Shown here: piece by piece, positions 1 through 28,935 of the stretch
Layout of the letters: the number at the start of each line of letters is the position of its first letter
Position numbering within the stretch: position 1 is the first letter of the stretch
DNA from: Jimgerdemannia flammicorona
Taxonomy: Eukaryota
Assembly: GCA_003990765.1 (NCBI GenBank)
Contig: RBNJ01000038.1
Span: forward strand, 1-48,374
Direction of reading: 5' to 3'
Length of the DNA: 48,374 nucleotides
Made by a program: the position numbers and the translations under genes
Notes under the pieces: model-generated
What the model was told of the DNA's origin: nothing
Databases searched by the model: none
What the model saw: the letters and a program-made list of their open reading frames with translations, nothing else

Positions 1-3000
1 CTATCACCCCATAGCCCCCTGCCAGCATCCACCAATACACCCAGCCTCTCTACTTCCTCCCACCCCCTCATGATGAAAGACTACTTTGCCATTCACCATC
101 ACCACCTACCCACTACTCTGGTCACAGATCTTTTCCACCAACCAACAATGTTGCTCACCCTGGGGCCCCCAATCAACCCACCACCCAGTCAACAGATCTC
201 CCATCAACCCCTCCTATCTCAATAACTTCTCCTATATACCTAACTGCCTCCTCTCCTCAAAAACAAAGAGCCAATATCTAGCCAGCCCTACCCATATAGC
301 TAAAACCCATTCTACAGTGAGCCATCCATTGCTCATATCTCTCACTAACCTAGATTTCAGATCCTCCCACTGCCCTCTCTCTCCATCTGGCCTCCTCTCC
401 ACACCCAACTGAGCCCCAACTGCTAACCAAAAGTCCCCCAGTACCTCACACTCTCTCAGCCAATACTCCAGTATCTGCATAAAACCCCCAACTTGCCCAA
501 TATTATAACACTCCTCACAATCAAATTGACCATCATCTACCAAGTGGCCAGCACAGAAATTCAACATGATATTCCTCTACAATATCCTCTACCATACCAC
601 CCAAAACTTTGGGGGAAGCTACCTCTACACCTCAGCACTCTATGATCAGACTCCTGCCCAGTTCCACTCCTCACCAATCCCCACTGCCTGCCAGCTACTT
701 GGCCACAGATCCTGTCCAAGACCCTGCTGAAATTCTACTCCATCACCAATATCAAACTCAGCAAGTGGAACTCCCCCCAGAAGCAGCCAGTCCCACTGCT
801 ACATAGCTGGCCCCTACAGTATCTCTCCCTCATTGCTTCATCAATACAGGCCTCTCCAGTGTACTCCATCTACTACTCTCCACCAGAAGCCCTTATACTG
901 TAGCCTTCAGCTTCTATCCAGACCCACCAGAGATAGCAAATCACCCAAGGATTCTCATAGAGAGAATCTCATCTCCCATACCTTCTGCATCAGAGGTACC
1001 CAGCCCCCTCCCTACAATTCCACTGCCCTTTTCAACCACCAAGCTCACAGACAATGTAGCTACTTAAGAAGGTCTATTAGTCCTAGCTCTTCCTGAATCA
1101 CCAGTACTGCCAGAGTGTCCCAACCAATCTGGGACTGCCTTCCTGCCCAAATCTAATCCCTAGCCAGTTTCATTAGTCTTTTCACCACCCAAGCTGAAAA
1201 GTCCAAATGATAAGCAACATATCATAGCTTGGGGAATCAGTAGACATTCAGGATCAAGACTTGATCTGCTAGGGAGATGTGGCAACCTCCTCAACCCCTC
1301 AGAGCCTCTCTCCAAATGGCTACTCTCCTCTTCCACCACACTCATAGCAAGACAGAACCATATACTAAAAAAAAGATGCTCAGATACCTCACCACCTCTC
1401 CTGTAGAGACAATTGTTCCAATGATGTCTCCTCCTACTAGACTATTCCCCAGCACCATTGTCTCATACTTATGCCAGTTGAGCTTTGCCCCAGAGTGTGC
1501 CTCATACCAGTCCACTATCACCTGAAGTACTGCAACATCTGCCACTGAGCCAAGACCAACTACCATATCATCTGCAAAGGCCCCCACCTTCTACACCACA
1601 CCATATACCAAGAGCCCTGCCACCTTCTGCTATATCCTATCCATCAAAGGTTCCAATGAAAAGGCATAGAGGATAGGAGACAATGGGTCTCCCTGAGGAA
1701 TGCCTCTCCCCAAGGGAAATGCCAGACCCCAGTGCCCATTATACATCAGTACTACTCTGCTCCCCTTCAACAGATTCAACATAGATGCTCGAAATCATGG
1801 GGGAACACCAATTCTATCCAGTACCTTGCCTAGCCACACCTGCCAAACACAGTCATAGGCCTTCTTCTGGTCCAAAAAGACCAGTCTCCCATCCAATCCA
1901 CAAGCCCTCACTCCTTCAATGATGCCATGAACCCAGGCAGTCCCATCTCTTATAAGCCTGCCTCTAACAAAGCCCTGCTGCTCCTCTCCCAGCACCTATT
2001 GGGCAACCTTCTGTAATCTTGCAACAATCACCTTGGTCACTATCTTCCTGTCTATATTCAGAAGTATGATTGGCCTCCAGTTCTTCCAATTCTCTCTCCT
2101 CTCCTTATCTTTATATAACAAGGCCACTAGCCCAAAGTCCTGCTTGCCGACCCACTTCCCATTCAGAAGAACATAGTCACAGAGAGCAGCCATCTCCCCC
2201 AATACTCCAGGGACCTTCACCATCTTCTTTCAGAAGTCCCAAGGCAGTCCATCTTTCCCTGGTACAGTCCTAAGCTTGGTTGCTACAAGGACTCTCTGGA
2301 TCTCCTCCTCTTGAACTGGTACAATTAAATCACCAAGGCCCTCTACTCATGGCAGATCTCACTCCTCCAGTGTGTCACCAATTGCTCCTTCATCTGCTCC
2401 CCCTTTCTCCTCACTCCACAGACTCCTCCATCTCTCCTTCAATACCCCCAAAATCTGTTATGTGCCATACACCATTTCTCCCTCAGCATCTAAGATCCCA
2501 TCTCAATGATATTGTACCCTCCTAGCTTGAAGATGTCTAGACAAGTACCTAGTAGGCCACTCACCCTCCTCAAGCCCCTGCCACTATAGTCTGACAGCCA
2601 TGCCTTTCAAATGAATTTCCTCCTCTTCTCTCAATATTCTTTGTACCTCCACTACCTCCAATTTCGCCCTCTCCAACCTCCAATCCTCTACCCCTTCAGA
2701 AGAAAGCAAATCAGCCCATTCTATCTGCAATCTACTCAGCCTGTTAGAAGCACATCTCACTCACTTTCTTCTCTGCCTCCCAGTCTCCTTACTAGCTCCT
2801 CCCCAATATACCCTCGCAGCCTCCTTCAGTCTCATTCAACAGTCACCTACAGATGAACCCTCATGTATCTAGTGAGTAATCTTCTCCTGGATCTCCTCCA
2901 CCCATGGGTCCCATAATCTCTTCTCAGCCAGCAGGGAGGAGTTAAGGTACCAATGTCCAGGTCCATCTCCACTCCCCCCAAACTGTCTCTGTTCCAACAG

Positions 3001-3676
3001 CCCCCAGTGATCAGACCATGGACACTACTCTACCTCTAGAGTCTGCCAAACATCATATCCCCAACAGTCAGCCATCAGAATCCAATCAATTCTCATACCC
3101 AGCCCATTCACCCAGTGCATATAGACCCTCTGGTTGCCCCAACATATTCTACCCCTATCCCCTAAGGAGCTAAGGTTCTCTGCCTCCTCTCACTTATCCA
3201 GACCACTACTCCTCCTACCTGTACTCCTCCCTCCATCAGTTCTATCTAGCTGCAGATCCCACACCATATTAAAGTCACATTAATGTCTTCCTCCAAGAGA
3301 ATGCCTTCCTCCAAAAGATCCTTAATCTACTCAATCTACTCACCCCTAACTGCAGGACAGTAGCAGGAGCTAATCTTCACTGACTCCCATCCTGGCCTAA
3401 GCCATTCTCCCCAGACCAATTGATCACCCCAGCTTCTAATTCTGCTCAAATCTCCTCTACCCTTCCTTATCAGAATTGCCACCTTGCCAACCCATGCAGT
3501 AGCTCCTCTTCATTCTTTAGTCCACTCTACTTGATCTTCCTTATCCTCACATATATATCCTGCAGTAAAAAGAGATCAGCCTCCAATCCTTTAAGTTAAG
3601 TAAAAATGTTCTTATGCTGCTCAGTACCCCGCAATCCATTCACATTTAGAGAAAAAATGTTAGTTGTACTGTTTAT
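1..3676 (-). pseudogene. LINE ORF2 (APE endonuclease, reverse transcriptase, C-terminal Cys/His zinc domain), with many stops and frameshifts
   Basis: Motifs FSLNVNG, LFLLQD, SDH, NWKNWRPIILLNIDRKI, QQGFVRGRLI, FLDQKKAYD, GIPQGDPLSP, GAFADDM and CEEC..EYWLREC. Confidence 0.9.
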
Positions 3677-3707
3677 TAGGAATAATGTTAAATATCAATC
3701 CCAGTCT

Positions 3708-5711
3708 CTATAAATCCACATTCAACTCCTCCTATGCTAAGTCCAAGTCATGTTCTGTAGCCAGCACCTTCTTCTCATCTGCCCATACTTCCAATTCTTC
3801 CAGAAGTTCAGCCATTGTCCCATTCTCCTTTTCCTTGAAGTCCTCATGATACTCCAGACATGCCTCTTGCCAGAGCTGCAAACCATGCTGCTCTGCCCAA
3901 CAGTAGACAGCCTGCTCACCAGCAACAACCACCAGCTCCACCTCCCTCACCTTATCAATCTCATATCCTTCCTCCTCCAGAAAAATCACAAGAATCTCCA
4001 TCTTCAGTGTCTGCACCACCCCTTCTCTATGCAAAATCCCTGCTCAATGCTCCTCACTCATCACTCACAGGTCCATCTCCCCCAACTCCTCAGCTACAAG
4101 GTTATCCATCACCTTGCTCATCCATAGCAGATTCCCCACCTCCTTTCCTCCTGGTGTCCCTGGCCTTCCTGTATCCAGTATCATGGTATTAGCCCCTACA
4201 CTGACAGTCTCATCCCATTCCTCCTCAGGGACATCCACCAGCTCATCCTCACCAACAGCCACTACCTGTCTACCCTTTACCACATCAGAAATCCCAAAGT
4301 GCACCTGCTGAGCACCCCACATCAGCTCATCCTCTGCTGCCTGACCTCTTGTAGCTGGGCCCTGTCTGATCAGAGAGGGAGTATCATCCACAACTAGGTC
4401 CCAGATCTCAAAAGTACCATCAGCAAATGGATCCTTGAGTGGTGCCTTCTCAGCCCCTTCCAGGCCCTCCTCCCTATCCCCTCTACCCTTGCTAGCCCAG
4501 ACACTTGCCTCCACTCCTCCAGACTTCACAGGGCCCCCAGCCTTCATCTTAGCCCCTCCATCTATGCTTGCTAGCAACTTCCTCTGCCTTCTGTGCCCTT
4601 GAGCCCTCTCCCACTACCTCTTGTCAGTACAGACATGCTTCCCATCAATAATCTCCAGATGTGTTAACTCCTCATACAATTTCCAGGCCTTTGCCCTCTA
4701 ATCAACTACACTACTCAACTCCTCCAGAGCCTCCAATAAGTCCTTCTCCTCCTCTTCACTCCCTCTCACCCTCAATATCTTATAGACAAAAGCTCTCCAC
4801 ATCAACACTGAGGGCCAGTCACTCATCTTCCCCATGGCCTCCTTTCTAGCCAATCTAATCCTCACATCCATATCACCTGTCCTGATGGAGGTCCCCTCCC
4901 ATACCTGGAAGCCAATGTCCACCACATTATCATACTCTACCATCACCTCCTCTACCCTCCTCCTAGTCTCCTCCTTTGTCACTATAGGCACCCCCTTCAC
5001 CAACAACTACACCACCCTGGGGTCTCACCTCAGACAGTGCACCATGGGGACCACCACTTTCCCAACCACTACTCTAGTCTTCAGAGCCTCTTTCAGTGGG
5101 CCCGCCTCCTCAAAGCCCACCTCAACTCCCTCCAGACCCTTCAGAAACTTCACCAAGACAGCCCCAGCCACCTGTTTCAATATAAGCCCCAGGACCATCC
5201 TTGTCATCACTACCAAGCCCTGGAAGCACAGTATCATTGCAAACTCCGAGATTGATTTCCTGAGTAACAGTATTACCACCAGCCCCATTATACCATTGGC
5301 CAGGTCCCCCTTCTGCATTGGGAACCCCTGCCCTACTCCACTATCACCAGTCACATCTCTTTTTTTTTTCTGATTCCCCATCATACTTCTATCAGCAATT
5401 CCTCTCCCAGCCACAGCACCTCCTATACCTATGCTTGCAGCCCTCACCTGAGTACCTCCCCCCCTTCCAAGGCTCACCTTGCCCTTCCCTTCAGCAGTAC
5501 CAGCCCTAGATCCAGCCAGCCACCCAGTCTCCTTCACCTTATCTGCAAAGCTTGGGGGGCCAGGCCTTCCCCCATTGCCACCAGCCACTGGTCCACCTCT
5601 AGATCCAAAGGCCCCCATCCCCAGGCCATAACCCCTCTCTATATTCTGCTAGCTGAAAGCTCCAGGTCCATCCAATCCAGCATGCCTGTCAGAACTCTTA
5701 CTCAATGACAT
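3708..5711 (-). pseudogene. LINE ORF1 (RRM-like region plus acidic C-terminal region)
   Basis: ATG at 5711. LVKGVP..VEYDNVVDIGFQVWEGTSIRTGDMDVRIRL resembles the RRM of Tx1-type ORF1 proteins. Homologous to 42600-44619. Confidence 0.75.
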
Positions 5712-5796
5712 GTTTATAGTACCTTTCCTCTGAGTTATATTGAAAACTATTGCTTAAAGTTGGTGTAATGTAAATTATATAGGAGAAAGGAAGTCT

Positions 5797-6516
5797 GTAC
5801 TGGTGATCCTTATTATTATATCCTCTACTGCTATGAAATAGAAACCAAGATCACTATTGCTACCAAATGTCTCCAAATATAGCAGGAGTATGAAATAGGA
5901 AACCTCCTCTACTAGGAGTTCCTACAGACCAGCCCCCAAGAGTTACAAGATGCCACTCCCATAGATATATGAAGCAAGGACAGCTAAGAATATCTATCAG
6001 ATCTTCAGACATGTACTATGGTCAATCCCCAACTTGGAGTATGTTAAAGTCTCAGATTTCAGAGACCTGTTATCCCACTATATCAATGTACTAAAAGCCA
6101 GAGTGGCTATAGAAGCCCAGTTCACTATCACCCTCAATAGTGATAAAGTAGAAGACTTCTGATATCCCATTCTTCAGGACAACCCAGATCAATTCCTGCA
6201 AGGATTGATCTCAGTATTCTAAGGCCCAAGCATCCAGGTTAGACCTCCCCAAGACCCCATATTTATTCTCTATTTTGTAAAAGAGAACCTCATAGACTGG
6301 AGAGCTCTAGATCTCCTTGTTCCTGCCACCACCACCACTAAATGTGATGACATCATTGGCAATAATGTCATCTCATGTGATATATGTGAAGTATGCAAAG
6401 TATGCACAATGAGTGACCTATGTAATGATGATGAATTTGCAGACCTCATCTCCTATGAAGACATCCTGACCTCTGATGAGAATGAAGCCCCTATAGTCTT
6501 AAACATTCTGCTCTAA
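5797..6516 (+). pseudogene. Decayed copy of the LTR-encoded 277-aa protein of unknown function
   Basis: Translates as GDPYYYILY..IETKITIAT..WSIPNLEYVKVSDFRDL..ILQDNPDQFLQGLI..EAPIVLNILL*, matching ORF 21106-21939. Confidence 0.85.
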
Positions 6517-6882
6517 AGTTCTTTTGTTACACTGAATTATTTCAGCACCATTTTCCTGTACTACTGTAATTATACCAGCATCCTGAATCTATACAACTAG
6601 TGCTCCAAATGAATGGAGTTGATTCAGATGAGATTCGATTCAGATTCATCATGTGATGGATTCAAATCAACTCAGATTGGTCTTGTGATCTGATCTGGAT
6701 TGATCCATCCAGATGATCCATCTGGATTGATCCATCTGGATTGAAATCTTTGGTGACATCATCCTTTCTTTTGTTCATTTCACTCTTGTTTTTTTTTTTT
6801 CTGCCGCACTTTGGTGACATCACTCTTTCCTTTGTTCCCTCTCTTTTCTTTGTTCTTTTTCTTTATTCTTTCCTGCCACATC

Positions 6883-8982
6883 ATGAGCAAACAAAATAGC
6901 AGCCCTTAATTTATATGTTGGTCCAGTCTACTCATTTTTCACCCTGCAATGATCATCAAAAGAGGGAGTATTCAAGGTGGAAATGCACTCTCTGCTGACA
7001 ATGTTAGATTCTTTCTCATATGAACAGCACACAAGCTGCTCATCAAGAGCCAAAGGGGTGACGGCAGTGGTGGTGGTGATGGCAATGGCAGGGATGAGGG
7101 AGAATTCTGGCAACAACTCACAGCGGCCCTTCGGACCTCGGAATTCACAGACCTCACAGCTATGTATGCAGCAGCCTTTTTGGAGCAGCCAATAGTAGAT
7201 GTAGGTTGCTCACTCGGCTGCCACTTGTTTACTTGTGTTTATTTAAACTTCTCCAGCACAACCCAATTCACCTTGTGCTTTTCTTAGGGTCCACAGCTCT
7301 ATGGTGAGATCTGCCAACTTTATTCACAACATCTGGTCAAGATGAAGAAAGACTGGCAGATGTTGCGGGGCATGTCTTTGGTGGCTGAGCTGTTGAGTCA
7401 ATGCATCATGTGGCAGAGGTCTCAAAAGAAACAGAAGCAAGCCTTCATGAGCAATTCTTGTGCAACTCGTACAACTCATCGGTATGCAACTCATTGGCAT
7501 ATAACTCGTCAGTATGTAGCTCACTCACTCATGCTCTTTTTCTGAAATACCCATCTCCATGTTTTATTTAATTTCATTTTTACATGGTCTCCTCTTAAAA
7601 AACACCCACACCTACATTAAACCCACACGCAACCCATCTGCATACAACCCGCCTGCACGCAACCCACCCGCAATCTGCCTGCAAGCAACCCGCCCACATG
7701 CAACCCATCTGCATACTTGTCTTGGTCCCTCAGATCAGGGCTCAGTTCCATTGGAAAGGAGAGTTCAAAGTTACCCAAGTTCAACTATATCCGGCATCTG
7801 ATCAAATAGAGAAATTCGAGGGCAAGATGTTCAGCATGAGCAGTACCAGCATCATCATTAAGGCTTGGGGGTCTACATTCAAATCAGAGCCAATTGTACT
7901 TGACCAAGGGGTCCATTGGCCAGCAGGAGTAACCAACGATGAAGAGAACCATATCTTTATTAACGAACATGGAGAGGTGGTTGCGATGGTGGTAAGGAAC
8001 CTCTACAGCAATGAGCTTTGCCGCCACATCAACAAGATTTGCAAGGATTGCATCAAATACCGGGTGGTAGGAAAGAGGGGGCAAAAAAAGCAAGGAGGGG
8101 GGGTTTGGATGGGAATTGGGTATACTGCAACACTGGTGAAGGGTGGGTTCCAGAGTTCCGAAATCTCCTGCACTCATCTCCTTTTTTTTTAACCCCTACC
8201 CAGATAAATCACACTCTTCGCCGACATACTCTTTTTGATACAATTCCAGAGATGCACAAGATTCTGTACCCCTACCAGAACTTTAGAAGTGCCATCAAAG
8301 AGCAAACTGCATGTGAGTACGACATGACCTGTGCGGTGATGGCAGCTATAATCTGGGGTTCTTTGAGCAGATTGGTAGAGTGTACGGCAGGCCAGCTTGG
8401 TGGTGATCTCGGCACGGCTGTACATACATTCTTGGCACAATTTAGCATGCTGTATGAGGTGAGGAGCTCCACTTTTTTGGGGTGCTGCAGCCCGGGGGGT
8501 TTCTGCGGCCTGGGGGGTTTCTGCCCCCTTGAATGCAAAAAGGACTGACCGGTTGCCATCCGATTTGGCAGGTTTCCGAGCCGGGGCTCTCGGGGCTGGA
8601 CCAAGGGCAGGCATCCACCAGCACAGCCTGGCAGTATGAGGTCCTGGGCCAAGGGTTCACCCAACCATATGCTCACATCACATCAGGATACATCAGGCAC
8701 AACCTTTCTCTATCCACACACACAGACAACAATGTCACCCCAGTAATGTTTTATGTCCCAGAAAGGAAGGGCCCAATCTGGGAGGATAGCAGCAGAGTCT
8801 GGTACGATCTCACCTATGGTTTCGGGGTCCCATTTGTGGCCAACACGGTCATCCTATTCCAACAACATGACCTCCATGGCACCGTCACCTTTGAGGAGAG
8901 CTCGGATACAACAGTTGTCGCACTCACAATGGATGACAGACTCATCAAGGCCTGGGACCAGCAGGTGGAGCAGTTTTTGTGA
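6883..8982 (+). pseudogene. Spliced cargo gene: putative TET/JBP-like 2OG-Fe(II) dioxygenase (two stops in exon 1; last exon open)
   Basis: Predicted exons ~6883-7200, 7288-~7511, ~7739-~8135, 8204-8458 and 8572-8982, separated by GT..AG introns. HxD (THTD, 8719-8727), then YDLTYGFGVPF..TVILF..HDLHGT (distal His at 8875), fits a double-stranded beta-helix metal triad. GGGVWMGIGY lies upstream. Confidence 0.6.
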
Positions 8983-9269
8983 GGATTAGGCAATCTTTCA
9001 TAAGGGTTAGGCAGCCATTTTGTGCAGGTTGGGCAGTCTTATGTGGGGGGGTTGGGCCGGGTGCCTCTTATGTAGCACTAGCTTAGCTGTTATGCAGGGC
9101 CCTACTGGCCCCCGGCCCTGCTCTGTAGTGCTGCTGGTGTGGTGCTGCGGTGCAGGGCCAGAGTGCCCATGGGACCCGAACCAGTGACTTCAACTGCCGG
9201 AAATATCCTTCAACCACCAGAAGCACCCTCCAACCGCCAGAAGCACCCTCTGCCCCAGACTCCTTGGCG

Positions 9270-9735
9270 GCTTAGGGCTGCCCCTATGCCACTGGCGGAG
9301 GGCTGCAAATTTTGCATGCTCCCTCCACCTGTCCTGCCTGTCCCAGACACTTGCGGCTTGGGGCAGCCCCTTGCTGCCAGCAGAGGGCCACAAATTTTTG
9401 CATGCTCCCTCAACCGACCCTGTGCCTACCAACCGACCCTGCCCACTGACCTGGGTGCTGACAGCTTAGGGCTGCCCCTTGCTGCTGGCAGAGGGCCGCA
9501 AATTTTGCATGCTCCCTCCGCCTACCCCCCCGACCCGGACACTTGTGGCTTGGGGCTGCCCCTTGCTGCTGGTGGAGGGCCACAAATTTTGCATGCTCCC
9601 TCCGCTGACCAGCCCACTGACCACTGACCCACTGCCCTCTGACCCACCGATCTGCCCACCGACCTGCCCACCGACCTGGGCACTGGCTGCACCTTGCTGC
9701 TGGCTGAGGGCCGCAAATATTGCACACTCCCTCCA
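9270..9735. repeat. GC-rich ~55-75 bp direct repeats (about 5 units) between the two convergent genes of the hAT element
   Basis: Recurring unit GGGCTGCCCCTTGCTGCTGGCRGAGGGCCRCAAATTTTGCATGCTCCCTCC, interspersed with short CCGACC/CTGACC repeats. Confidence 0.85.
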
Positions 9736-9869
9736 CCATTGCTGCCAACTCCGCCCCACTTTGGCTGCCAACTCTGGGCTGAGGTCTCAGGTTTTTTTTT
9801 CCTTTTTTATTATTTTGAAAGATATTAAATATTCCACAAGGCCAACCAACTTATCTACAGACCTGCCAA

Positions 9870-12450
9870 ATTTTAGCAGCCTGAGCCCCACCAAGACTTC
9901 AGACACATATGCTCAGATTGTCTCAGCATTCAGCATACACCTCTTTGGGGCAACAAGGTCCACCCCACCTGAGAACACCCACTCGATAGGAGCACTGAAG
10001 GTAGGAATCGCTAGGTAGTCCCGAGCCATACCACACAGGCTGGGGAAGTCTGTTTGATGCAGCTGTATGCCCCAGTGGGTAGAGCAGTGGTTAGATTGGT
10101 GGGTTAAATTGGCCCAATGCCCACCTGACAACCCACCTTCCACTAGTTGAGTATCTCTGTGCCCTCCAGCAGGACCATGCGGTCACTGGCAAGGTAAATA
10201 GTAAGTTCATCTATTGATGGCAACTCTTCCACTGATGGCTCCCTCTTCCTCTTTCTGCCGAAGTAAATGTGGGACAGGAGGGATCTCTTGGCATATTCAT
10301 CCGGACTTTGGCCAGAACCTTGCGGCGGTGCATAGTTTTTCCAGTACACTTCAATTACGGCCTGCTTAGTTCTCTCAATGAAGTGCTGCTCCCAGCCCTG
10401 ATCTTTATGGTATTGTAGCTTTAAGCATGGGTCCAGCACTATTTGAAGAAAAGGAGAGTGAGTTTTTGCAGGGTTTCCTCTATTTTGAAAGGGGTAATGG
10501 CCATATGCTGACATCGACATACCTATACTGATTGAGTATATAGCGGTATCTATTTGGGAGTAGTATTTTCTAAGCTTACTTAGAGCAACCTCCACAGCAT
10601 CTCTCTGATCCAGGCTTAACCGTAAATCACTGCAACCCTCCAGCCTGTCCTTGAGCTTGTCCTCTAGCTGGTCAATCAGAAGGTTGTATATCAGTATTAC
10701 AGAGCTTATTGTCGGAGTCGTTTGTTTGACTATATTCTTTGTATAATCATTGAAACACTAGCAGTTATGTATATGTGGTGAGGTGTTGTATTGTGCGAAG
10801 GCAGACAAAATGAGTGTGGAGCCAGGGCAACCACTACTTACTTTCAAAACTCTAACAACATTCCTAAGTACATCCCACTTGCTTTTACCTAGAGCCTCGG
10901 CCCATATTTCCTTGTCGGCACCCATCATTGAATCTATTGGCTTTTTTTTTTTTTTTTTTTTTAAAAATAAATCTTCCATCATCCAAAACAGTTGCTTCAG
11001 CTGACCAAAGAAAAAAAGGATACATACCACAGCAAAATTCCAGTATGTGCTGGATCATTGCAAATGTTGAGTTTCAATGCATACAGACATCTAATATAAG
11101 CTCTTTCGGGGCTAAACTGATTGCCCTACACTGCATAGCGAATTTGTCTCATTATTGTGGGGATGATCAGACCAACACAACCATTGCGCAGCTTGGAAAT
11201 TATACTCAGGGCCCCTCCTCTCTCAGATGTTTTGTCTATATACATAAGATAGTCCTGAACAGCAAGGTTCAGTATATGGGCCTGGCATCGCATATGGCAG
11301 CTTTCTGCACTGAAGGCCATGTTTTCCTATTTGAGGCTGACCGCTAAAACTTGGAAAAATGTTGAGTTGTTTGTGGCATTGTCTGTCATAATGGCTAAAA
11401 TCTGTACTTGAAATATTTGGTTGACAAATTTATGTGAAAATAAGTAACCAATAAAATCTGATTTGGTTTAGGACCTCCCTCAAAATGCTGACCTAATGAC
11501 AAGCCCCCCTTTTTTACCTTGGTGGTGATCCCAAGCTCCCGGATACAACTAATAAAAGCATCTGCGATGTTGTCTCCAGAATGAGGGCCAGCAAGTTTGA
11601 CGAAGTCAAGGGTGAGAGATTTAAGCTGCCAATTGAGGTCAATCCAATGACTGGTAATGCCCAGAAACGAAATTGCATTGGGGGATGTCCATGTGTTGAT
11701 CGTAAACGAAATTTTGCCTGTCGAATTCTGCTTATTGAATGTGAGGTTAAATTGGTGAGCTCTTTTATATAATTCAGCTTGCAAAGGTATGGTGCTGCCC
11801 TTATTTTATCTGAAGTATCTGGCAGAGATTGTCATGCTCCTTCCTATAGGCCTCCAGGACATCTTTGCAAATAGTATCGGCACTTGGCAAATATAAATCA
11901 TGCTTGAGGAGGCCAAAGATACTATGCAATTGATCACTCTTGATGGTTGTGAATGACTGATCTATGTACACAATCCAGCAAATGAGCTGATTTCGAAATT
12001 CTGCTGAAGAGTATGGCTAAATATTTTTGATTAAATGGTGTTGTTAGTACAGAAATGGTCAGGCAATCAGATAAACATACCCACCACAGCTTGGATATCG
12101 ATTTTATTTGTCTCCATGTTCTTTTTGATTTTGTCAGAGTGCTTGTCTTTTATGTGTTGATTCATGTTCAAAGTCATACCCCCAAGCATTTTGAACTTCT
12201 GGCTGGTGCAGTTCATGGGGGTGGATGAAACAATATCATGTGTGTGTCAAAACAATATCATGTATGTGTCAAAACAAAGTGTCAATAGGTGTGTCTTAAT
12301 TTTTTACCTGCAATAATTACAAACAACATCATCTCCTATCTTAGCACATTATTGCCAGATTTTGGAGCAAGGATTGTGTGGAACTATCAGAGATGTTTGA
12401 CTTGAAGCATCATCGGTACTGTGAACTGTTGAAGACTGATCTGTCGACAT
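9870..12450 (-). pseudogene. hAT transposase (BED finger, RNase H-like DDE core, C-terminal dimerisation domain), intron-containing, with stops
   Basis: SKIWQ..VVCNYC..TLNMNQHIKDKH (BED); ISFTINTWTSPNAISFLGITSHWID; GPHSGDNIA; TDNATN; RCQAHILNLAVQD; LDPCLK; FPSLCGMARDYLAIPTFSAPIEWVFS. Confidence 0.93.
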
Positions 12451-12554
12451 GTGTGTTTGTGTGTTTGCATGTTTGCGTGTGCATGTGTATGCGTGTGTAT
12501 GTATGCATGTATGTGTATTGTATTATGGACGTGTCCGGCATATGAGTTATGTAG

Positions 12555-12970
12555 AGGATTTGGATTGGAGGATTTGGTTGAAGGATTCAGATGAGGATTC
12601 AGATTGAAGGATTCAAATTGGAGGATTCAAATTGGAGGATTTGAATTGGAGGATTCAAATTGGAGGATTTGAATTGAGTGATTTGGATTGAGTGATTTGG
12701 ATTGAGTAATTCGAATTGAGTGATTTGGATTGGGGTAGTTCGGATGGGTGATTCAGATGGGTAATTCGGATGGGGCAATTCAGATGGGGCAATTCAGATT
12801 GAGTGATTCGGATTGAGTGATTTGGATTGGGGTAGTTTAGATGGGTAATTTGGATGGGGCAATTCAGATAGGGCGATTCGGATTAAATCTGAGTTGATTC
12901 AGATGGCTTCAGATTTGAGATTCGAATCAAACCATCATGTGATGAATCGAATCTGGATTTGATTCAAATT
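12555..12970. repeat. hAT subterminal tandem repeats (~15-bp GGATTCAAATTGGA / GTGATTTGGATTGA units)
   Basis: Directly visible tandem array next to the right TIR. Related motifs occur at 6615-6750. Confidence 0.85.
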
Positions 12971-13334
12971 GACTTGTTCAGAGCACTATATACAACCATC
13001 AGTACCAACCCTGGAACTTAGTAGTTTTTCCTGTCCTGGTATTTTATTTTAGTTATTGTAGCTTTATATCTTAGCAATCATTGAATTATATTTTGTATAA
13101 ATACCTCTCTTATTTTCTCTGAAATAAAGTCAGTCAAGTTCACTTTTATATACTTCCTTGCAAGCAATCTAAGAGATAACAAGATAGTTTAAAGATAAGA
13201 AGTTTGAGGACTATAAGACCTTAGGAAGGCACTCCAATAAGAACTTGCTTATAACAAACTTGAGTTAGTCTAAGAGATACATCTTGAAGAGAATCTGACA
13301 TATTTGAAGGACTCAGTGACCACTATATAATAAT

Positions 13335-13690
13335 ATTTAGCTTATACTAGTAGATTATTTATTTTGCAACAGAATAAGAAAACAGTTATAAGAATTATAC
13401 TAAAATAGAAAGTAACTATAATTAATATAAAACAAAGTTATAAAAAGATATAAATATTAGACAAGAGGCAGAGCATTAAATATCATCCTCACTCCTTCAA
13501 TACTCTCACTTCTATCAGATAGTCTGATGAGGCCAGCTCTTTCCAAGTAATATAGAGAGACTCTTTGACCATATTAAGGTTACTATATAAGGAAGAAATC
13601 ACTACTCTGAGGCTCTTAACCTCACTAGTTAGAACTTAGAATATTTTGTTTTCAACTGATAGAAAATTATTGAGAGAGCCTATCAGATCA
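13335..13690. repeat. ~350-bp interspersed repeat, copy 1 of 3 (others at ~18803-19182 and ~22812-23174)
   Basis: All copies share TAGCTTATA..GATTATTT..CAACAGAATAA..GACTCTTTGRYCATATTAA..CTTAAYCTCACTAGT. Confidence 0.75.
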
Positions 13691-14788
13691 CTAGTATGAC
13701 AAACCAAAATATATCACCTGAATTATAACTTAGTCAGATGATGTGAATACATAGCATAGTAACCAGCAACCATTGCTGTAGAAAGCTGTATAAATAGCCA
13801 GACTACTAAATAAGGTATACTTGTACAAGACCTGTACACCCATGCAAGATCTGCACACTTGTCATAGATAGTAATCTATAATTAGCAACATAGTAATCAG
13901 ATAGCAACCACAACTGTATAATACCCCAGAGATAGGAGTGAATAAACCTCAATCTGAAAGTCTGAATTCAAAGCAAAAGACAAGTCTGCCTATTATACTT
14001 TGAGAGATATGTCTGCCAAAAGCCACTTGATCTAGAAAGGATTGCAATACTTAGGAGAAATACCCACTCTACAGCCACTGCTAGGAGATTGTGAGCATTG
14101 GTTCCCCTTTCTACTCTGGTCCACTTTCTGATACAAAGAATGAGTCCATTTTTGGTTTACTTGCCAGATAAGCCTGAAGTTTGCTGCCAAGTTTAAGGAG
14201 AACTTCACTATCATTTCCAAGTTATTCGCTATATTCCCAGAAAGCCTAAGAGAAAGCTGTCTTGCATAAGCCAGTCTCTGATGCAACTTCACAGTAATCT
14301 GTCATATAAATGAAGCCAGTTTTTGATATAACTTTGCCAAGAGACTCTTTCCCAAAGCTGCCAGTTGTTTGTATTCCCAGAAGAGCCCAATTTGGAAGAA
14401 CTCACACCATCTGAGTTATTTCTCAGTTAAAGCTGCCAATTCAGGAAGAATCTGCATTATCTACTATTCTCAAGTTATCCACATTCTCAGTTGAAGCTGC
14501 TGATTCAAGAAGAGTCTGCACCACCCAAGTTATACAACATCTGAGTTATTTGTTCCCAGTGAGTCTGGTATAGAGAATCTGCCACCAGTATTATTCCCAG
14601 TTATTCAAATTATCCACACCATCTAAGTTATTATTCCCAGAAGTCTGCTGATTTAAGAGAATCCATGCCATATCAAGGGGTTCACTAGAGTGGCAATAGT
14701 TACAGACCCAAGTGGCCAGTCCAAGTAGCCATATACACTTCCATAGTAACTTAATTTGGAGAAATCAGTAACATGTGATAAATGAAAA

Positions 14789-14789
<1 letters not shown>

Positions 14790-14829
<40 letters not shown>
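14790..14829. repeat. (AAT)n microsatellite
   Basis: Direct observation. Confidence 0.95.
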
Positions 14830-14830
<1 letters not shown>

Positions 14831-14860
14831 CAAAAACTCAAGGATGATAGGTCTCAAGAA

Positions 14861-16908
14861 TTAGCTCAATTGATGCTCGCACATATTGAAAAAATTCAAC
14901 TGTCTTTGCATTGTCACCATTATCTAAAATCTGCCAAAATGAATCATGAAATCTCTCTGTTATCTCATTCATTTCCAACTGCAAATTCTCAGTCTCTCTC
15001 TGCTCCTTGGTCTCAAACTCATAAACTTCAACTATTTCATGATGCTCATATACTGAATATCCAGCCTCACAAATATATCTTGAAAACCTTGCCAGGCATG
15101 CTCTGTGAGTAGCTTTAGTGTCCTGTGAAAATGCTCATAAAAAATGTATCAACATGGTATCAAGTAATGCATGAAAAATCATCAATGACACTCAGCATTA
15201 ATCAATCCTGGTGGGGCTTTCTCTTTCTCAATTCATTTTAGTACAAAAAGGGCCTCATCAGTAAGAAGTCGCTGGAGAGGATAGGGGAACTTGTGGATTT
15301 CAGTGAGGACAGCATCATCAACAGCAGCAATAGAGAGTTTATAGGTATGAAATTGCAATTCTGCTCATCAGGCATCCTGACTCTTCTTGGTATCAAGCTT
15401 GACAGTCTTTATACATGCACTTGTAGTTTATTAAATTATAAAAATCAATTAAATAATTATTAATATTAAAATTATAAAATCAATTAATAATAAAAAAAAG
15501 TAAACATACCAATTAAACCATGAGAGGATGATGTAGTAGTCTTGAGCTCACTGTGAAATGATTCTACAACATTGGTAGTTATTACTTGAAACAGAAGTGA
15601 TGAGTGTTGGTGGGTCCATAGTGCCCACTTTTCTATATTATTAACATAGTTCTTTATAATGTAATTTTTGATGGCTGAAGTGGGAGCAAGCTCAATTGCT
15701 TGCTGTACATTCTCCTTACAGTTGGCTTTAGTTCGTCAATGCATAGCCAGAATCATCTTATTGCAGACAGCATCATCATATATCTTTGACATCCATGTTT
15801 GCATAATATGAACTATATATAAAATAATAGTACATTCCATCTCACCAGCTTCTAGATCTTGAAAGACCTTATTGATAGCATTAGCTTCAATGACACTCTG
15901 ATCAGGAAGAATATATTGAGGACTCCAGTTGGGTGAAAACCTTTGAACTATCTTGAGTATCTGAGTTATGATAGTACTGTCTTCTCCATCTACAAAGAAG
16001 TATCCACCTATACACTAGCATCCAATATTATCATGAATGTATAAGATAAACAACTGCCAGTCCCACTTATTTGTCTTATGTGTTGAGTTGATAAGTGTCA
16101 GCCAGCCATGTTTTGAAAGTTTTTGAGATTATTCCGAGATAGCAAAAACAAATCCTTGTTTAGGCAGAATGAATGTAGAAGATGAGATAGAAGATGAGGT
16201 AGAAGATGAGGTAGAAGATGAGATAGAAGATGAGATAAAAGATGAGGTAGAAGATAAGGTAGAGGATGAAGATATTTCTTGAATGTGATATCTATTTTCT
16301 AGTAAAAATTTAAGAGTCTCTATAATGTCTGTCTTCAAATCTTCACTTCCAATGAGATGTATATTAACTGGTCTCTGCACAACTTGTTAAATGTTTGTAA
16401 CATCCTTTATTCAAAGATATTATGCTCCACTTCCTTCACTCAGTTTTGCTATAGCACTTTCTTTTACTGATGTAGTAATGTCTGGTGGCCAATAGCTCTT
16501 TGCAGCCTCCTCAGTTATAAGATCAAGCAATGCCTAAGACTTCTTGAGCATATCAATCTCATCAATTGGATGAGTATGAATAGCAGGTCCTGGGCCAAAT
16601 GGTTCAATATGCACAGTCTGTGTAGAAGAGATTCTAGTGATTCGAATTTTGGTAGAGCAGAGATTAGGGTCATGAATATTTGTTTTTCTATACTTCTCAG
16701 GTTCGACACTCTCTTGACATATACTGGACTGATGATACTTTGAGAGGTGATACATACATGCTGTCCATTTATCTCTCTTTGCTGGAAAACTATCTAAATA
16801 ATGACTCTAAACATTGGTGACAAGTGGTTAAAGTTTATCAAATTCTTCTTGTGAAATTTCAAAGGAGTTTGAAATGTTAAAAAGGTGGAGGTGATTATGT
16901 TGAGCCAT
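14861..16908 (-). pseudogene. MULE transposase (WRKY/FAR1-like zinc finger, DDE core, SWIM finger)
   Basis: LCSTKIRIT..HTH; INSTHKTNKWDWQLF; WSPQYILPDQSVIEANAI; TTNVVESFHSELK; SWIM remnant ECH**FFMHYLIPC*YIF; AT-rich intron at ~15420-15509. Confidence 0.88.
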
Positions 16909-17059
16909 TGAATAAAGTGAAAAAGATTTCAAGTTTGCAGTTTATTATAAACAACTAAGAGTCCTTATATATAATACAGAATACAGTCTGAGTAAGTAAG
17001 AAAATAAAAGAAACAATTGAGAAAAGAGGTTGGAGATTTCTGCACCATCTTGGCACTAT

Positions 17060-17402
17060 GGCAAACAGCTGAGAGTCCTTATTATAAAGAGCACAGTATG
17101 AGGCAAAGTCTGAGTAAACAAAAGAAACAATTGAGAAAGAGAGAAAAATATTTCTGTGCTGCCTTGGCACTGCAGCTGGCTGTGGCTATAGCTATTGAAT
17201 GGTTCTTAAGTTCATATACCTTATGAGCTGGTGGCAAACAGCTGAAAGTCCTTATTATAAAGAGTACAGTATGAGGCAAAGTCTGAGTAAACAAAAGAAA
17301 TGATTGAGAAAGAGAGAAAAATATTTCTGTACTGCCTTGGCACTGCAGCTACAGACTGCAGCTATTGAACAGTTCTAAGTTCATATGCCTTATGAGCTGG
17401 TG
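17060..17402. repeat. ~173-bp tandem duplication in the MULE 5' subterminal region
   Basis: GGCAAACAGCTGARAGTCCTTATTATAAAGAG...CTTATGAGCTGGT occurs twice, with a partial third unit at ~16950-17060. Confidence 0.85.
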
Positions 17403-17944
17403 CAACTTGAGTCATGTGTATTCAGCCACTTGTGTCAGCCACTTGGGTCTGTAACTGTTACCACTCTAGCGAACCCCCATATCAAGTTATCTGCCAGAAA
17501 TTGCATACTTTTGGAGATTGCCACCACCAAAGAAGGAAACTATTAAATTGACAGATTATTATACATAAGGAATCTGCCACACTACACAAGATCATTATGC
17601 AGAAATTGTATAAGGAGAACCACTAAATTACCAGACCATCACACACAAAGAGATCATTATGCTATATAGAAATCACCTGCTACTCAAGAAGGAAACTGCT
17701 CATGCTATATATGAAATTCTACCAATTCCCAGTTGACCAAAGAAGGAAAAGACATATATACCCAGAGAACTGTCCAAATAAGGAAACTGCTCACAGACAT
17801 CCAGCTTTGACTATTATACCACTAAATACCAAGGACCTCAGGAATCTTAGAATATTTTGTTACTTTTAACAAAGTAACTGGGGGCTCAAGCCAAATTACA
17901 TCAATCCCCAACCTTGTAATTTGCCTCCATTGAGCTAGGTACAT

Positions 17945-18666
17945 TATACTAGCTATCTAGAAATTTGACATAAATATAAGATTGGCCACTATATCTGCCA
18001 ATACTGTCAAGAACTCTCCTCTGAGCAAATTATAGACTAGACTAATCTAGATAGATATAAATAAAAACTTGCTAAAATAATTTATCAAATCTTCTAACAT
18101 ACTCTCTTTAATATCTCTAACCTCAACTTTATATAAACTATAGACTTCCAGAACCTCTTCTCTGAAGTAGATGAGCTAGAAGCAAAAGTAGCTGCTAAGG
18201 TCTATTTCTAAATTCTTTTTAAGACTAAAGACTATAAACTCTACTAGAGCTCTATTCTGAATAACAACTCTGATCAATAGACTTAAGGTCTCTCTAATCT
18301 ATTTGAAGAACTACTCATTTAAATAGATATCTCAAAAAATAAAGAGTAAGACCTATATATAGATAATTCCAAATATATCAAATAGAGATCTCTAACTCTA
18401 TCTCAAATAACTCTAGATGAGTAAGTTCTATATATATATTGTTTAACTATATTAGATAGAGATCTCCAACTTTATCTCAAATAACTCTAAACTAGTAAAA
18501 ACTATTTAAAGATCTTATTGGCTTTTCTATACTCAATATTGATATCTCTACTGATTTATATACTAGCTAGATAGATACTAATAATAAGAATAAAAATGAT
18601 ATCATTTCTCTAGTTCTCAACTTTAAGATAAGTGAAATAGAAATTAATATAAATATTAATTTCTAA
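17945..18666 (+). pseudogene. Divergent paralogue (type B) of the LTR-encoded protein, copy 1
   Basis: YLEI*HKYKIGHYICQ..LAKIIYQIF*HTLFNISNLNFI*TIDFQNL..ELEAKVAA..ILNNNSDQ*T*GL..DLIGFS..LVLNF aligns along the length of ORF 21106-21939. Confidence 0.7.
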
Positions 18667-19183
18667 ATATAACAAAGTATAAATGATAATTATATAATCT
18701 CATTTATCTTAATTTATCTTATTCATATATTACTTATTTATAATATTATTATCAAATCATATAATTATCATTTGTAGTATATTGTGAATGTAATTCTTAT
18801 TAAGTAGCTTATACTTATAGATCATTTATTTTATAATAAAATAAAGAAATAAATATAAGAAATACATCAGAGTAAGAAGTAGTCATAATTAATATAAAGC
18901 AATAGTTACAAAAAGATATAAATATTCAATAGGAGGTAGAGTACTAAATATTTATCTCTACTTCAGAAATCTACAAAGATATCTCTTCAATACTCTTATA
19001 TCTATCAGACAGTCTACCAAAGCTGATCTCTCTCAAGTGATATAAACAAACTCTTTAGCTATATTAAGATAGTAATATAATGAAGAAATGTCCACTCTGA
19101 GATCCTTAATCTCACTAGTTAAGACCTAGGTTATTTTGTTCTTAACTATATACTAGAAACTTCTCAAAAGAGTCTATTAGTCT

Positions 19184-19834
19184 ACTAGCTATTTGAAAAT
19201 CTAGTATGAGTATGAAATTAGCCACCATATCTACCAATATTATCAAGATCTCTCTGAAGAATAATTGCCAACTAGATTAGTCTAGATATATAGATATAAA
19301 TAATAACTTACTAAAAAAATTCACTAAATATTCTGACATACCTTCTATATAATCTCTAATCACAACTATATATAAACTACTAATTTTCAGAACCTCTCTT
19401 ACTCTGAAGTGGATAAACTAGAAGTAAAGATAACTGCTGAGGCCTATTCTCAGATCTCTCTTAAGACTAAAGATTGAAGTTCTATTAGAGATCTATTCTA
19501 AATAACAACTTCAACCAATAGATTCAGGGCCTCTCTAATCTATTCAAAGAACTACTTATCTAAATAAATATCCTAAAGAATACAGAATAAATCTCATATA
19601 TAAATAGTACTAACTATATTAAATAGTAATATCTAACTCTACTCCAAATAATCTCAAATTAGTAAAAAATTATTTTTAGATCTTATTAACTTTTCCATAC
19701 TTGATATTAATATTTCCACTAATTCATATAATAGTCAATGAGATACTGATAATGAGGATGAAAAGGAGGTCATTTCTCTAGTCCTCAACTTCAAGATAAG
19801 TGAAATAGAAATTAATATAGATATTGATTTCTAA
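19184..19834 (+). pseudogene. Divergent paralogue (type B) of the LTR-encoded protein, copy 2
   Basis: Nucleotide-level homologue of 17945-18666, with the same ending CTCTAGTYCTCAACTTYAAGATAAGTGAAATAGAAATTAATAT..TTCTAA. Confidence 0.7.
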
Positions 19835-20524
19835 GAAGAGAGAATATAATAAAAATTATATTATAAATAAGTTTGATAATATATTGTAAATAATAATTAT
19901 ATAACTAGATAATAATATCATAAACAAATAATATATAAGATAAGTGAGATAAGTAAAAGTAAGATATAAAAAATAATATACTGAACTCTCTAAATACTAG
20001 AGTTATAGCAAATAAATTACTTAACTATATATTACCTAATTAATAATTATTCATTTTTTAAGTAAACAATATCGCAGGTTATTTGTTTTGCAAACAAATA
20101 ACCAAAGCAGTTATATATATATTAATTTAGTCATATATACTTAGCCAAAATTTGTAAATTATTACTTAGCTAATATAAATAAATACTCTAGCAATTATAT
20201 TCAAAATAAACTAGCTCTTAGTTTAGTATAAAATATAATATATATTCCTCTGAGTTCTTAGTAATGATATCTAAGTTACTATAGTATTTCTGACTAAACT
20301 CTAGAAGCCTAGCTAACTTCTATCAGAACTAAGAACTAATATATATTTAAAAGAAACCTATTTTAAATCTGAATTATAAGAGATTTAGTCTATATATAGT
20401 AAAGATAAGTCCCTTATAACTATGATTACTAAAGTAGAACAATACTTTTATTCTATTATAAAGAAATAACACTTCCTCAATCTAAGTTATTACTATTAAG
20501 TAAAAGAATAATTAAAAGGCTTCT

Positions 20525-20561: not shown

Positions 20562-20793
20562 GTCTTTAAGTAATACCTTATTATTGTCACGTAGTGGTCA
20601 CTGAGTCCTTCAAATACGCCAGATTCTCTTCAAGGTGTATCTCTTAGACTAACTCAAGTTTGTTATAAGCAAGTTCTTATTGGAGTGCCTTCCTAAGGTC
20701 TTATAGTCCTCAAACTTCTTATTTTTAACTATCTTGTTATCTCTTAGATTGCTTGCAAGGAAGTGTGTGTAAGTGAAACCAGAACTGACTGAC

Positions 20794-20826: not shown

Positions 20827-20890
20827 CAAAATATAATTCAATAGTTGCTAAGATATAAAGCTAAATATAAATTCCAATAACTAAAACTAC

Positions 20891-21092: not shown

Positions 21093-21105
21093 ATAACAAA
21101 GAACT

Positions 21106-28885: not shown

Positions 28886-28935
<50 letters not shown>

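What the first reader, a model, noticed from the sequence alone, without database searches (positions are those of the whole stretch)
6883..8982. hAT transposon carrying a TET/JBP-like dioxygenase cargo gene
Seen: a multi-exon gene convergent with the transposase lies inside clean hAT boundaries (TIRs plus 8-bp TSD). Its last exon has HxD...GFGVPF..VILF..DLHGT, the layout of a 2OG-Fe(II) DSBH fold, similar to TET's ..LIE...ELHATT. Established: fungal TET/JBP genes travel with Kyakuja/Dileera/Zisupton and Plavaka transposons and oxidise 5mC. I know of no standard association with hAT. Inference: this could be a transposon-borne demethylase that counters host CpG methylation. Caveat: the 2OG-binding Arg expected after the distal His is not obvious (DTTVVALTM), and exon 1 has two stops.
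Basis: partly seen in the sequence, partly recalled or inferred. Interest (0 to 1): 0.85.

Follow-up and report, generated by a model that had tools for sequence, protein, structure and literature searches.

The report
hAT transposon carrying TET-like gene
A 6.4-kb cut-and-paste transposon in a heavily CpG-depleted, probably fungal genome carries, besides its transposase, an intact gene for a distant relative of the TET/JBP DNA-base oxidases, an arrangement that was described in print for rust fungi in 2025.

Summary
Window 6598-12988 is an hAT-superfamily transposon. It has an 8-bp terminal inverted repeat and an 8-bp target duplication (TATACAAC). Empty sites are seen in public contigs and in a paralogous repeat in the window. 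Its hAT transposase lies on the minus strand.

Convergent with the transposase is a five-exon gene (7162-8982, my model, 431 aa, no stops, all introns GT-AG).

Pfam, PHROGs, NCBIfam and PDB sequence searches do not recognise the protein. An exhaustive HMMER search found four unnamed metagenome relatives, and later searches added one protein and two contigs.

Profile-profile comparison links this small family to ten phage TET/JBP enzymes (probability 92%, P 6e-7). The HxD and distal His align. A P4H-type 2OG oxygenase control scored nothing, and reversed or shuffled controls stayed far below.

The iron triad is conserved (H 19/19, D 17/19, H 18/19). The Arg that clamps 2-oxoglutarate in TET2 and NgTET1 is absent in 19/19.

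No fold could be obtained: the only AlphaFold model had pLDDT 35.6.

hAT elements carrying TET/JBP genes are already published (Kojima 2025, hAT7, 7-bp duplications, six Puccinia species). This is therefore a new member of a known kind. Activity and substrate are untested.

The parts
6590..6597 (.). left copy of the 8-bp target site duplication TATACAAC
   Evidence: empty-site joints with 8 shared letters
6598..6605 (+). left terminal inverted repeat TAGTGCTC (start of the element)
   Evidence: the 19-nt left end occurs once in the window
6693..6744 (.). left subterminal 14-bp repeats (ATCTGGATTGATCC, 3.8 copies)
   Evidence: palindromic pair I5
7162..8982 (+). cargo gene for the TET/JBP-like protein. 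Exons 7162-7200, 7288-7515, 7734-8142, 8250-8458, 8572-8982; 431 aa; 5' end uncertain
   Evidence: Gene model. tblastn of P0003 and P0008 onto exons 3-5, E 1e-9 to 4e-16. Intron places shared with L001
8719..8727 (+). codons for His-Thr-Asp (HxD, proposed iron ligands; residues 345-347 of the model)
8875..8877 (+). codon for the distal His (residue 397 of the model)
9207..9774 (.). GC-rich (about 0.6) tandem and direct repeats between the two convergent genes (units of 84-108, 20, 15, 12 and 23 bp)
   Evidence: (D12)
9916..12450 (-). hAT transposase gene. Its reading frame is in at least seven pieces. There is a TAA between the first Met and the CxxC of the N-terminal finger. The motif reads INTWTS where I recall D-x-W-T-S
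   Evidence: the hAT dimerisation domain is at 9916-10182
12554..12884 (.). right subterminal array of about 20 copies of a 14-bp unit (GAGGATTYRGATTG)
   Evidence: (D1)
12981..12988 (-). right terminal inverted repeat GAGCACTA (end of the element)
12989..12996 (.). right copy of the target site duplication TATACAAC

Best explanation
Window 6598-12988 is one copy of a multi-copy hAT-superfamily DNA transposon. It inserted into an older repeat that has lost its CpGs.

Besides the transposase, the element carries a spliced gene for a very divergent member of the TET/JBP (5-methylpyrimidine dioxygenase) superfamily.

Most likely mechanism (inferred): the protein binds Fe(II) through His345, Asp347 and His397 of my model. 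It oxidises a methylated base, most plausibly 5-methylcytosine, on the element's own DNA and on neighbouring DNA. That would weaken methylation-based silencing and methylation-linked C-to-T decay, which have erased CpG from the surrounding repeats.

Shown: the hAT anatomy, the intact cargo reading frame, homology to TET/JBP at profile level, and conservation of the triad.

Inferred: the fold, the activity, the substrate and the benefit to the element.

This particular copy probably cannot move by itself, because its transposase frame looks damaged.
For: hAT anatomy. An 8-bp TIR and an 8-bp TSD. Empty-site contigs in 2 of 4 runs laid. An uninterrupted paralogous target in the window. Pfam Dimer_Tnp_hAT at 32 bits. 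Subterminal 14-bp repeats at both ends.

Multi-copy with cargo. Contigs at 80-100% identity cover 30 of 30 bins of 6400-13200 in X1, X3 and X5, and 29 of 30 in X6. The cargo region is covered as well as the transposase region.

Cargo gene. A 431-aa open frame with four GT-AG introns. A 358-aa homologue on metagenome contig L001 has its three introns at the matching places.

TET/JBP link. hhalign of the family (A3, 7 rows) against ten phage proteins related to Mycobacterium phage Cooper gp2 gave probability 92.2%, P 6e-7, score 55.0 and 194 columns. HxD, an invariant Arg-x-Gly and the distal His-Gly all align. Cooper gp2 is the phage TET/JBP cited in Kojima's Figure 7 legend and hits Pfam Tet_JBP at E 4e-6, though at 26.6 bits it is below the 34.9 cut-off. 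With the window's exon 5 as first row the result was 92.0% and 54.7.

Controls. The family against ten cyanophage 2OG-FeII_Oxy_3 proteins scored 15.4, probability 0.2%. Tet_JBP against Oxy_3 scored 20.9. Against my local real score of 51.1, reversed profiles scored 13.5 and 11.3, 60 column shuffles reached at most 21.0, and 60 block shuffles at most 32.7.

Triad conservation. H 19/19, D 17/19 and H 18/19 rows of A4.

Language-model leads. P0003 is nearest to a Basidiomycota cluster in which 15% of members carry PF20515, with score 0.96 and 211 of 256 features. A Tet_JBP cluster stands at rank 11.

CpG context. CpG observed/expected is 0.33 inside the element, against 0.00-0.06 in most flanking 2-kb bins. 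Differences between copies are almost all transitions.

Precedent. TET+ hAT and ten other DNA-transposon lineages in fungi (PMC12730594).
Against: No sequence-to-profile search recognises the protein. This covers Pfam at E up to 10, PHROGs and NCBIfam and PDB sequences.

The family alignment is shallow (Neff about 1.6-2.1), so hhalign statistics are rough.

The only structure model failed: mean pLDDT 35.6.

The Arg 15 residues after the distal His is A, S or T in 19 of 19 rows. That Arg is invariant in the ten phage enzymes (R236). It is described as strictly conserved for 2OG binding in TET2 and NgTET1 (PMC7854593, passages).

The other candidate Arg, seven residues before the HxD His, is His in the window and in P0001.

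Many other copies carry TAA at codon 104: at 7776 C>T, depth 57.7 of 81.9 in X1 and 16 of 16 in X5.

The higher CpG content can be explained by a young insertion alone.

The host organism is not identified.
Confidence: 0.6

Rival explanations
1. The protein is a TET/JBP-fold enzyme with non-canonical chemistry. Without the Arg that clamps the C5 carboxylate of 2-oxoglutarate, it would use another co-substrate or another binding mode. The algal TET homologue CMD1 does this: it uses vitamin C and makes 5-glyceryl-methylcytosine. The product would then be a DNA mark other than 5hmC.
For: Arg at His+15 is 0 of 19, while Ser/Thr at His+17 is 19 of 19, so the strand is kept but the clamp is gone. 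CMD1 cannot use 2OG because no basic residue stabilises the C5 carboxylate (PMC7854593, Discussion passages). The His-to-His spacing of 52 residues equals that given for CMD1, His345 to His397. Kojima reports CMD1 among the nearest solved structures for transposon-borne PU and PE types.
Against: No structure and no assay. An invariant Arg in [KE]-R-x-G (18 of 19 rows, aligned to the phage invariant R187) or another residue could bind 2OG instead. Equal spacing is weak evidence. I could not compare directly with CMD1 because its sequence was not on hand.
Confidence: 0.15
2. The gene is a decaying passenger. A once-functional or captured dioxygenase gene would be carried along without benefit to the element, and this copy's open frame would be chance survival.
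For: Many other copies have a stop at codon 104. Close relatives of L001 show D>N, H>Y and R>H/C changes at key columns. L002 has broken frames. No RNA holder was available to show expression. The transposase of this copy looks damaged.
Against: A 1296-nt spliced frame without a stop, in an element whose copies differ mainly by transitions. The triad and about 15 other columns are invariant across relatives of 29-80% identity. Intron places are kept between distant relatives. Kojima notes mostly undisrupted TET frames in transposons.
Confidence: 0.15
3. The hhalign match is a false positive. On this view the protein is an unrelated accessory protein of unknown fold that happens to carry H-x-D and a later His.
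For: No Pfam, PHROGs, NCBIfam or PDB sequence hit. The profiles are shallow. AlphaFold gave no confident fold.
Against: The real score of 51-55 compares with at most 32.7 in 120 shuffles and 13.5 for reversed profiles. The match is collinear over 194 columns, including the N-terminal strand region. Four separate invariant phage positions align to invariant family positions: H, D, R-x-G and H-G. An independent language-model search points the same way.
Confidence: 0.1

Closest known systems
TET+ hAT7 transposons of Puccinia species (Kojima 2025, Biology 14:1741, PMC12730594)
   Same: An hAT-superfamily element that carries a TET/JBP-type dioxygenase gene beside its transposase. The host genome has CpG-directed hypermutation of repeats. 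The proposed role is escape from methylation-based silencing.
   Different: hAT7 makes 7-bp target duplications; this element makes 8 bp. In the three P4-lineage hAT7 families named in the paper's Discussion (hAT7-1_PCor, hAT7-2_PCor, hAT7-1_PHor), the TET gene lies upstream of the transposase in the same orientation; here the two genes converge. The host here is unknown. The paper's sequences (Table S1, Data S1, Repbase) could not be seen, so identity to one of its families is unlikely but not excluded.
PU-, AG- and PE-type transposon-borne TET/JBP dioxygenases (same paper); CcTET of Coprinopsis cinerea
   Same: The HxD...H triad. Divergence so great that only profile or structure methods see the relation, as the paper reports for PU and PE types. 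Carriage by DNA transposons.
   Different: It is not PE type, whose hallmark is HxE; this protein has HTD. Assignment to PU or AG could not be tested. Pfam PF20515 and PF12851 do not hit it.
Phage 5-methylpyrimidine dioxygenases next to ParB (Cooper gp2 and relatives; O'Toole et al. 2026, PMC13229309, abstract read)
   Same: Profile-profile match over 194 columns, with aligned HxD, R-x-G and His-Gly-x-Thr.
   Different: The phage enzymes keep Arg-x-Ser after the distal His (R236 and S238 invariant), act on thymine, and lie beside ParB-like genes; O'Toole et al. describe a ParB-dependent subclass. The family here has A/S/T-x-S/T, and no ParB gene was noticed among the element's reading frames.
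CMD1, algal TET homologue that uses vitamin C (PMC7854593)
   Same: A TET-family enzyme without a working Arg clamp for 2OG. The His-to-His spacing is the same, 52 residues.
   Different: CMD1 retains an Arg at the aligned place, though it points away. CMD1 is a host gene, not transposon cargo.

Membership tests
hAT superfamily of DNA transposons | 8-bp target site duplication | tested here: met
   TATACAAC on both sides. Empty-site joints share 8 letters.
hAT superfamily of DNA transposons | Short terminal inverted repeats | tested here: met
   8 of 8 bases are complementary, TAGTGCTC and GAGCACTA. The first five bases, TAGTG, fit the YARNG terminal consensus, which I recall from memory.
hAT superfamily of DNA transposons | Transposase with the hAT C-terminal dimerisation domain (Pfam PF05699) | tested here: met
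   E 1e-7, 32.0 bits against a cut-off of 21.4, on 9913-10182(-).
hAT superfamily of DNA transposons | Intact DDE catalytic core | tested here: inconclusive
   The frame is in at least seven pieces, and some breaks may be introns. There is a TAA after the first Met. The motif reads INTWTS where I recall D-x-W-T-S. No reference hAT protein was on hand.
hAT7 (Kojima 2025) | 7-bp target site duplication | tested here: not met
   8 bp.
TET/JBP (5mYOX) dioxygenases | Match to Pfam Tet_JBP (PF12851) or 2OG-FeII_Oxy_6 (PF20515) | tested here: not met
   Neither family hit the window's exon frames (E up to 1), P0001-P0004 (E up to 1) or P0003, P0008 and P0009 (E up to 10).
TET/JBP (5mYOX) dioxygenases | Profile-level homology to recognised members across the catalytic core | tested here: met
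   Probability 92.2%, P 6e-7, 194 columns against ten phage members. The result is specific when set against a P4H-type 2OG family and against shuffles.
TET/JBP (5mYOX) dioxygenases | HxD...H iron-binding triad | tested here: met
   H 19/19, D 17/19 and H 18/19 rows, aligned to the phage invariants H171, D173 and H221.
TET/JBP (5mYOX) dioxygenases | Arg (R-x-S) after the distal His that binds the C5 carboxylate of 2-oxoglutarate | tested here: not met
   0 of 19 rows have Arg at His+15 (A 2, S 3, T 14). Ser/Thr at His+17 is kept in 19 of 19. The phage relatives have invariant R236 and S238.
TET/JBP (5mYOX) dioxygenases | Double-stranded beta-helix fold | tested here: inconclusive
   The AlphaFold2 model of P0003 with 7 rows had mean pLDDT 35.6 and was unusable. 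No second model could be obtained.
TET/JBP (5mYOX) dioxygenases | Oxidation of 5mC or T in DNA | not testable with these tools
   Needs an enzyme assay.
PE-type transposon TET (Kojima 2025) | HxE in place of HxD | tested here: not met
   The window has HTD. Relatives have HVD or HTD.

The most novel reading that the evidence does not exclude
This is a separate, so far undescribed branch of transposon-borne TET/JBP-fold enzymes. It is found in soil eukaryotes and is invisible to Pfam. It has lost the 2-oxoglutarate-clamping Arg in every member, so like algal CMD1 it may use another co-substrate and write a DNA mark other than 5hmC on transposon DNA.
Probability: 0.12. Interest if true: 0.75.

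Novelty: new member of a known kind. Interest (0 to 1): 0.4.

Why it matters
Transposons that carry their own DNA-demethylating enzyme are a counter-defence against genome methylation. The idea and the hAT case are in print, so this locus mainly widens the range: an 8-bp-TSD hAT, a convergent gene order and a protein family that standard domain libraries miss. Two points could repay bench work. First, the whole family lacks the canonical 2OG-binding Arg, which raises the question of what co-substrate it uses and what product it makes. Second, the locus offers a clean natural contrast: a CpG-retaining element set in a repeat landscape with almost no CpG left. That contrast could test whether such enzymes protect their carriers from methylation-linked decay.

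Tried and rejected
Family libraries. Pfam on all exon frames and on the relatives gave nothing relevant. PHROGs and NCBIfam gave nothing relevant.

PDB by sequence. With the single sequence and with the profile, only chance hits appeared: picornavirus capsid and endoglucanase, E 0.2-0.6.

Word-indexed homologue searches. Three searches yielded only P0003, P0008 and P0001.

Exhaustive HMMER with exon 5. It returned 7 hits, of which 4 are true relatives and 3 are repeat-protein noise.

Structure. AlphaFold2 of P0003 failed with pLDDT 35.6, so no fold search was run. No second model could be obtained.

Expression. No RNA holder was listed for the element, so expression and splicing are untested.

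Whole genome. None is held for the window, so copies could not be counted or aligned and no dN/dS was possible. The metagenome loci could not be scanned with Pfam models through the genome search.

Earlier findings. Nothing was on record for this genome, sequence or place.

Rfam. No match in the window.

TCG-specific hypermutation, known in Pucciniomycotina. It is not evident in the element: ACG/CGT is the most depleted context at 0.13, while TCG/CGA stands at 0.40. This gave no clue to the host.

Literature. Iyer et al. 2014 is not held in the library. What I say of it comes from Kojima's text.

Host organism. Not identified. 'Probably fungal' rests on the precedent, the CpG pattern and the taxa of the language-model neighbours of P0003.

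Full report
**1. What is there**

The window is eukaryotic, repeat-rich DNA with 40% G+C. Between 6598 and 12988 lies a 6,391-bp element.
- Its ends are TAGTGCTC and GAGCACTA, 8 of 8 bases complementary.
- TATACAAC flanks it on both sides.
- A second inverted pair of 20 nt, 85% complementary, sits 45 and 40 nt inside the two ends.
- 14-bp subterminal repeats occur at both ends: 3.8 copies on the left and about 20 on the right.

The boundaries do not rest on motif reading alone.
- I laid the contigs of four public runs on 6400-13200. Contigs in two of the four runs (X1 and X5) join 6589 directly to 12989, with 8 letters shared.
- A paralogous copy of the flanking repeat inside the window (25340-24864) runs uninterrupted across the insertion point, at 74.8% identity over 492 columns.
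- The element therefore inserted into an older repeat and duplicated 8 bp, as hAT elements do.

**2. The transposase**

On the minus strand, a series of open frames from about 12450 down to 9916 has the look of an hAT transposase. The last frame hits Pfam Dimer_Tnp_hAT (E 1e-7, 32 bits, cut-off 21.4).

The frame is in at least seven pieces. Some breaks may be introns. Two other features suggest this copy's transposase is damaged:
- a TAA lies between the first Met and the CxxC of the N-terminal finger;
- the motif reads INTWTS where I recall D-x-W-T-S.

I had no reference hAT protein, so this stays a partial reading.

**3. The cargo gene**

A plus-strand gene converges on the transposase. The two are separated by a GC-rich block of tandem repeats at 9207-9774.

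tblastn with the relatives found below fixes exons 3 to 5. The model is 7162-7200, 7288-7515, 7734-8142, 8250-8458 and 8572-8982. It has four GT-AG introns and gives 431 residues without a stop.

The real 5' end is open.

**4. Relatives**

- Domain libraries and PDB sequences are silent.
- An exhaustive HMMER pass over 1.84 billion representatives with exon 5 gave 7 hits. Four are real: P0001 at 80%, P0002 at 51%, P0003 at 31% (374 aa, full length) and P0004 at 34%. Three are repeat-protein noise.
- Further searches added P0008 and two metagenome contigs, L001 and L002.
- All of these are unnamed metagenome or Logan sequences.
- L001 carries an intact 358-aa homologue whose three introns lie at the same places as three of the window's four.
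- L001 has 34% G+C and a CpG ratio of 1.2. It shows no transposase in its 3.7 kb.

This is a small eukaryotic gene family with conserved gene structure. It is not a chance frame.

**5. Is it TET/JBP-like?**

The structure route failed. AlphaFold2 on P0003 with a 7-row alignment gave mean pLDDT 35.6, and no second model could be obtained. The fold is therefore not shown.

Instead I built comparison profiles from named phage records.
- Positive set: ten relatives of Mycobacterium phage Cooper gp2. This is the phage TET/JBP member used in Kojima's Figure 7. It hits Pfam Tet_JBP at E 4e-6, though at 26.6 bits it is below the 34.9 cut-off.
- Control set: ten cyanophage P4H-type 2OG oxygenases. The seed hits PF13640 at 1.7e-16.

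| Comparison | Probability | Score |
|---|---|---|
| Family (A3) vs phage TET/JBP set | 92.2% (P 6e-7, 194 columns) | 55.0 |
| Family with window exon 5 as first row (A4) vs TET/JBP set | 92.0% | 54.7 |
| Family vs P4H-type control set | 0.2% | 15.4 |
| TET/JBP set vs P4H-type control set | 1.4% | 20.9 |

In my own run, which included the spliced window and L001 proteins, the real score was 51.1. Against it, reversed profiles scored 13.5 and 11.3, 60 column shuffles reached at most 21.0, and 60 block shuffles at most 32.7.

The alignment puts the family's HxD, an invariant R-x-G and the distal H-G on the phage invariants H171/D173, R187 and H221/G222.

A protein language-model search gave concordant but weaker leads.

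I conclude that the family is a distant branch of the TET/JBP superfamily. My confidence is about 0.8 for homology and lower for function.

**6. Residues**

Across 19 rows:
- H of HxD: 19/19.
- D of HxD: 17/19. Asn replaces it in two near-identical relatives of L001.
- Distal H: 18/19.
- Arg at His+15: 0/19 (A 2, S 3, T 14).
- Ser/Thr at His+17: 19/19.

The ten phage enzymes have invariant Arg and Ser at exactly those spacings. For TET2 and NgTET1 this Arg is described as strictly conserved and as holding the C5 carboxylate of 2OG. CMD1, which lacks a working clamp, uses vitamin C instead (PMC7854593, passages).

**7. Context**

- CpG is almost gone from the window outside a few islands: 0-4 CpG per 2 kb over most of it.
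- The element keeps a ratio of 0.33, and the change coincides with its boundaries.
- Differences between copies are overwhelmingly transitions. Of the 28 best-supported window-derived transitions, 12 are at CpG.
- This fits a host that methylates and mutates repeats, the setting in which transposon-borne TETs are thought to help. A young insertion explains the same contrast.

The family is multi-copy in four runs: three soil metagenomes and one run of a coded organism. Cover runs across the cargo region and the transposase region alike. Many copies carry TAA at codon 104, where the window has CAA. Intact cargo is therefore not universal.

**8. What is known**

Kojima 2025 (PMC12730594; abstract, Methods, sections 3.1.2, 3.2, 3.4 and 4, and figure legends read; supplements closed) reports TET/JBP genes inside eleven DNA-transposon lineages in Pucciniomycetes, Agaricomycetes and Pezizomycetes. 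These include twenty hAT7 families in six Puccinia species. The paper proposes the same anti-silencing role.

The present element differs in three ways:
- an 8-bp rather than a 7-bp duplication;
- convergent rather than tandem gene order;
- a protein that has HxD, so is not PE type, and is not hit by PF12851 or PF20515.

Whether it belongs to the PU or AG type could not be tested.

My library searches found no other paper on hAT with TET.

**9. Verdict**

The kind is already known, so this is a new member of it. The lack of the Arg clamp across the whole family is an open biochemical question. Interest 0.4.

Noticed in passing
window 1-6500, 13000-20000, 22000-42000: There is almost no CpG: 0-4 per 2-kb bin, observed/expected 0.00-0.08, at 24-50% G+C. 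CpG survives only in the hAT (0.33), at 20-22 kb (0.48) and at 42-48 kb (0.12-0.24). This looks like a host process that removes CpG from repeats.
   Followed up: partly
window 6298-6597 + 12997-13300; 20620-20906; 23359-23648; 24864-25340: The hAT sits inside a member of an abundant repeat family with three more copies in the window (75-88% identical). This flank has the highest depth in all four runs laid.
   Followed up: partly
window 7776: Where the window has CAA (Gln104 of the cargo model), many other copies in public contigs have TAA. The depths are 57.7 of 81.9 in X1 and 16 of 16 in X5. The window copy is one of the intact ones.
   Followed up: partly
window 8873: All X1 contigs covering this place (9 contigs) read A instead of T. 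That changes Leu to His directly before the distal His, giving His-His.
   Followed up: no
window 1805-5603 and 30782-34582; 42000-48374: Two strongly C-rich, strand-skewed repeat copies (GC skew about -0.45), about 72% identical, lie about 28,980 bp apart. A G-rich block at 42-48 kb holds broken reverse-transcriptase frames (RVT_1 hits at 45829-46491 and 46513-47199).
   Followed up: partly
window 20902-22020: A 35-bp tandem repeat (4 copies) lies next to a 304-aa open frame on the minus strand with no Pfam hit. The region is one of the few that keeps CpG.
   Followed up: no
window 9207-9774: A GC-rich (0.6) block of nested tandem repeats fills the space between the stop codons of the two convergent genes of the hAT. 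Its role is unknown. Public contigs show length variants here (joints at 9324>9431 and 9326>9643).
   Followed up: no
L001 615-1956; L002; proteins P0004-P0022: The homologue sits in an AT-rich organism with a normal CpG ratio and no transposase in view. Its 28 near-identical database variants include D>N at HxD (2 of those aligned), H>Y at the distal His (1) and R>H/C. L002 has broken frames. This may be a multi-copy, decaying gene there too.
   Followed up: partly
window 7472-7516 and 7620-7707: Short tandem repeats lie at the end of exon 2 (15-bp unit) and inside intron 2 (41-bp unit). The exon 2 donor I chose (7515/7516) lies in the first repeat, so this junction is the least certain in the model.
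   Followed up: no
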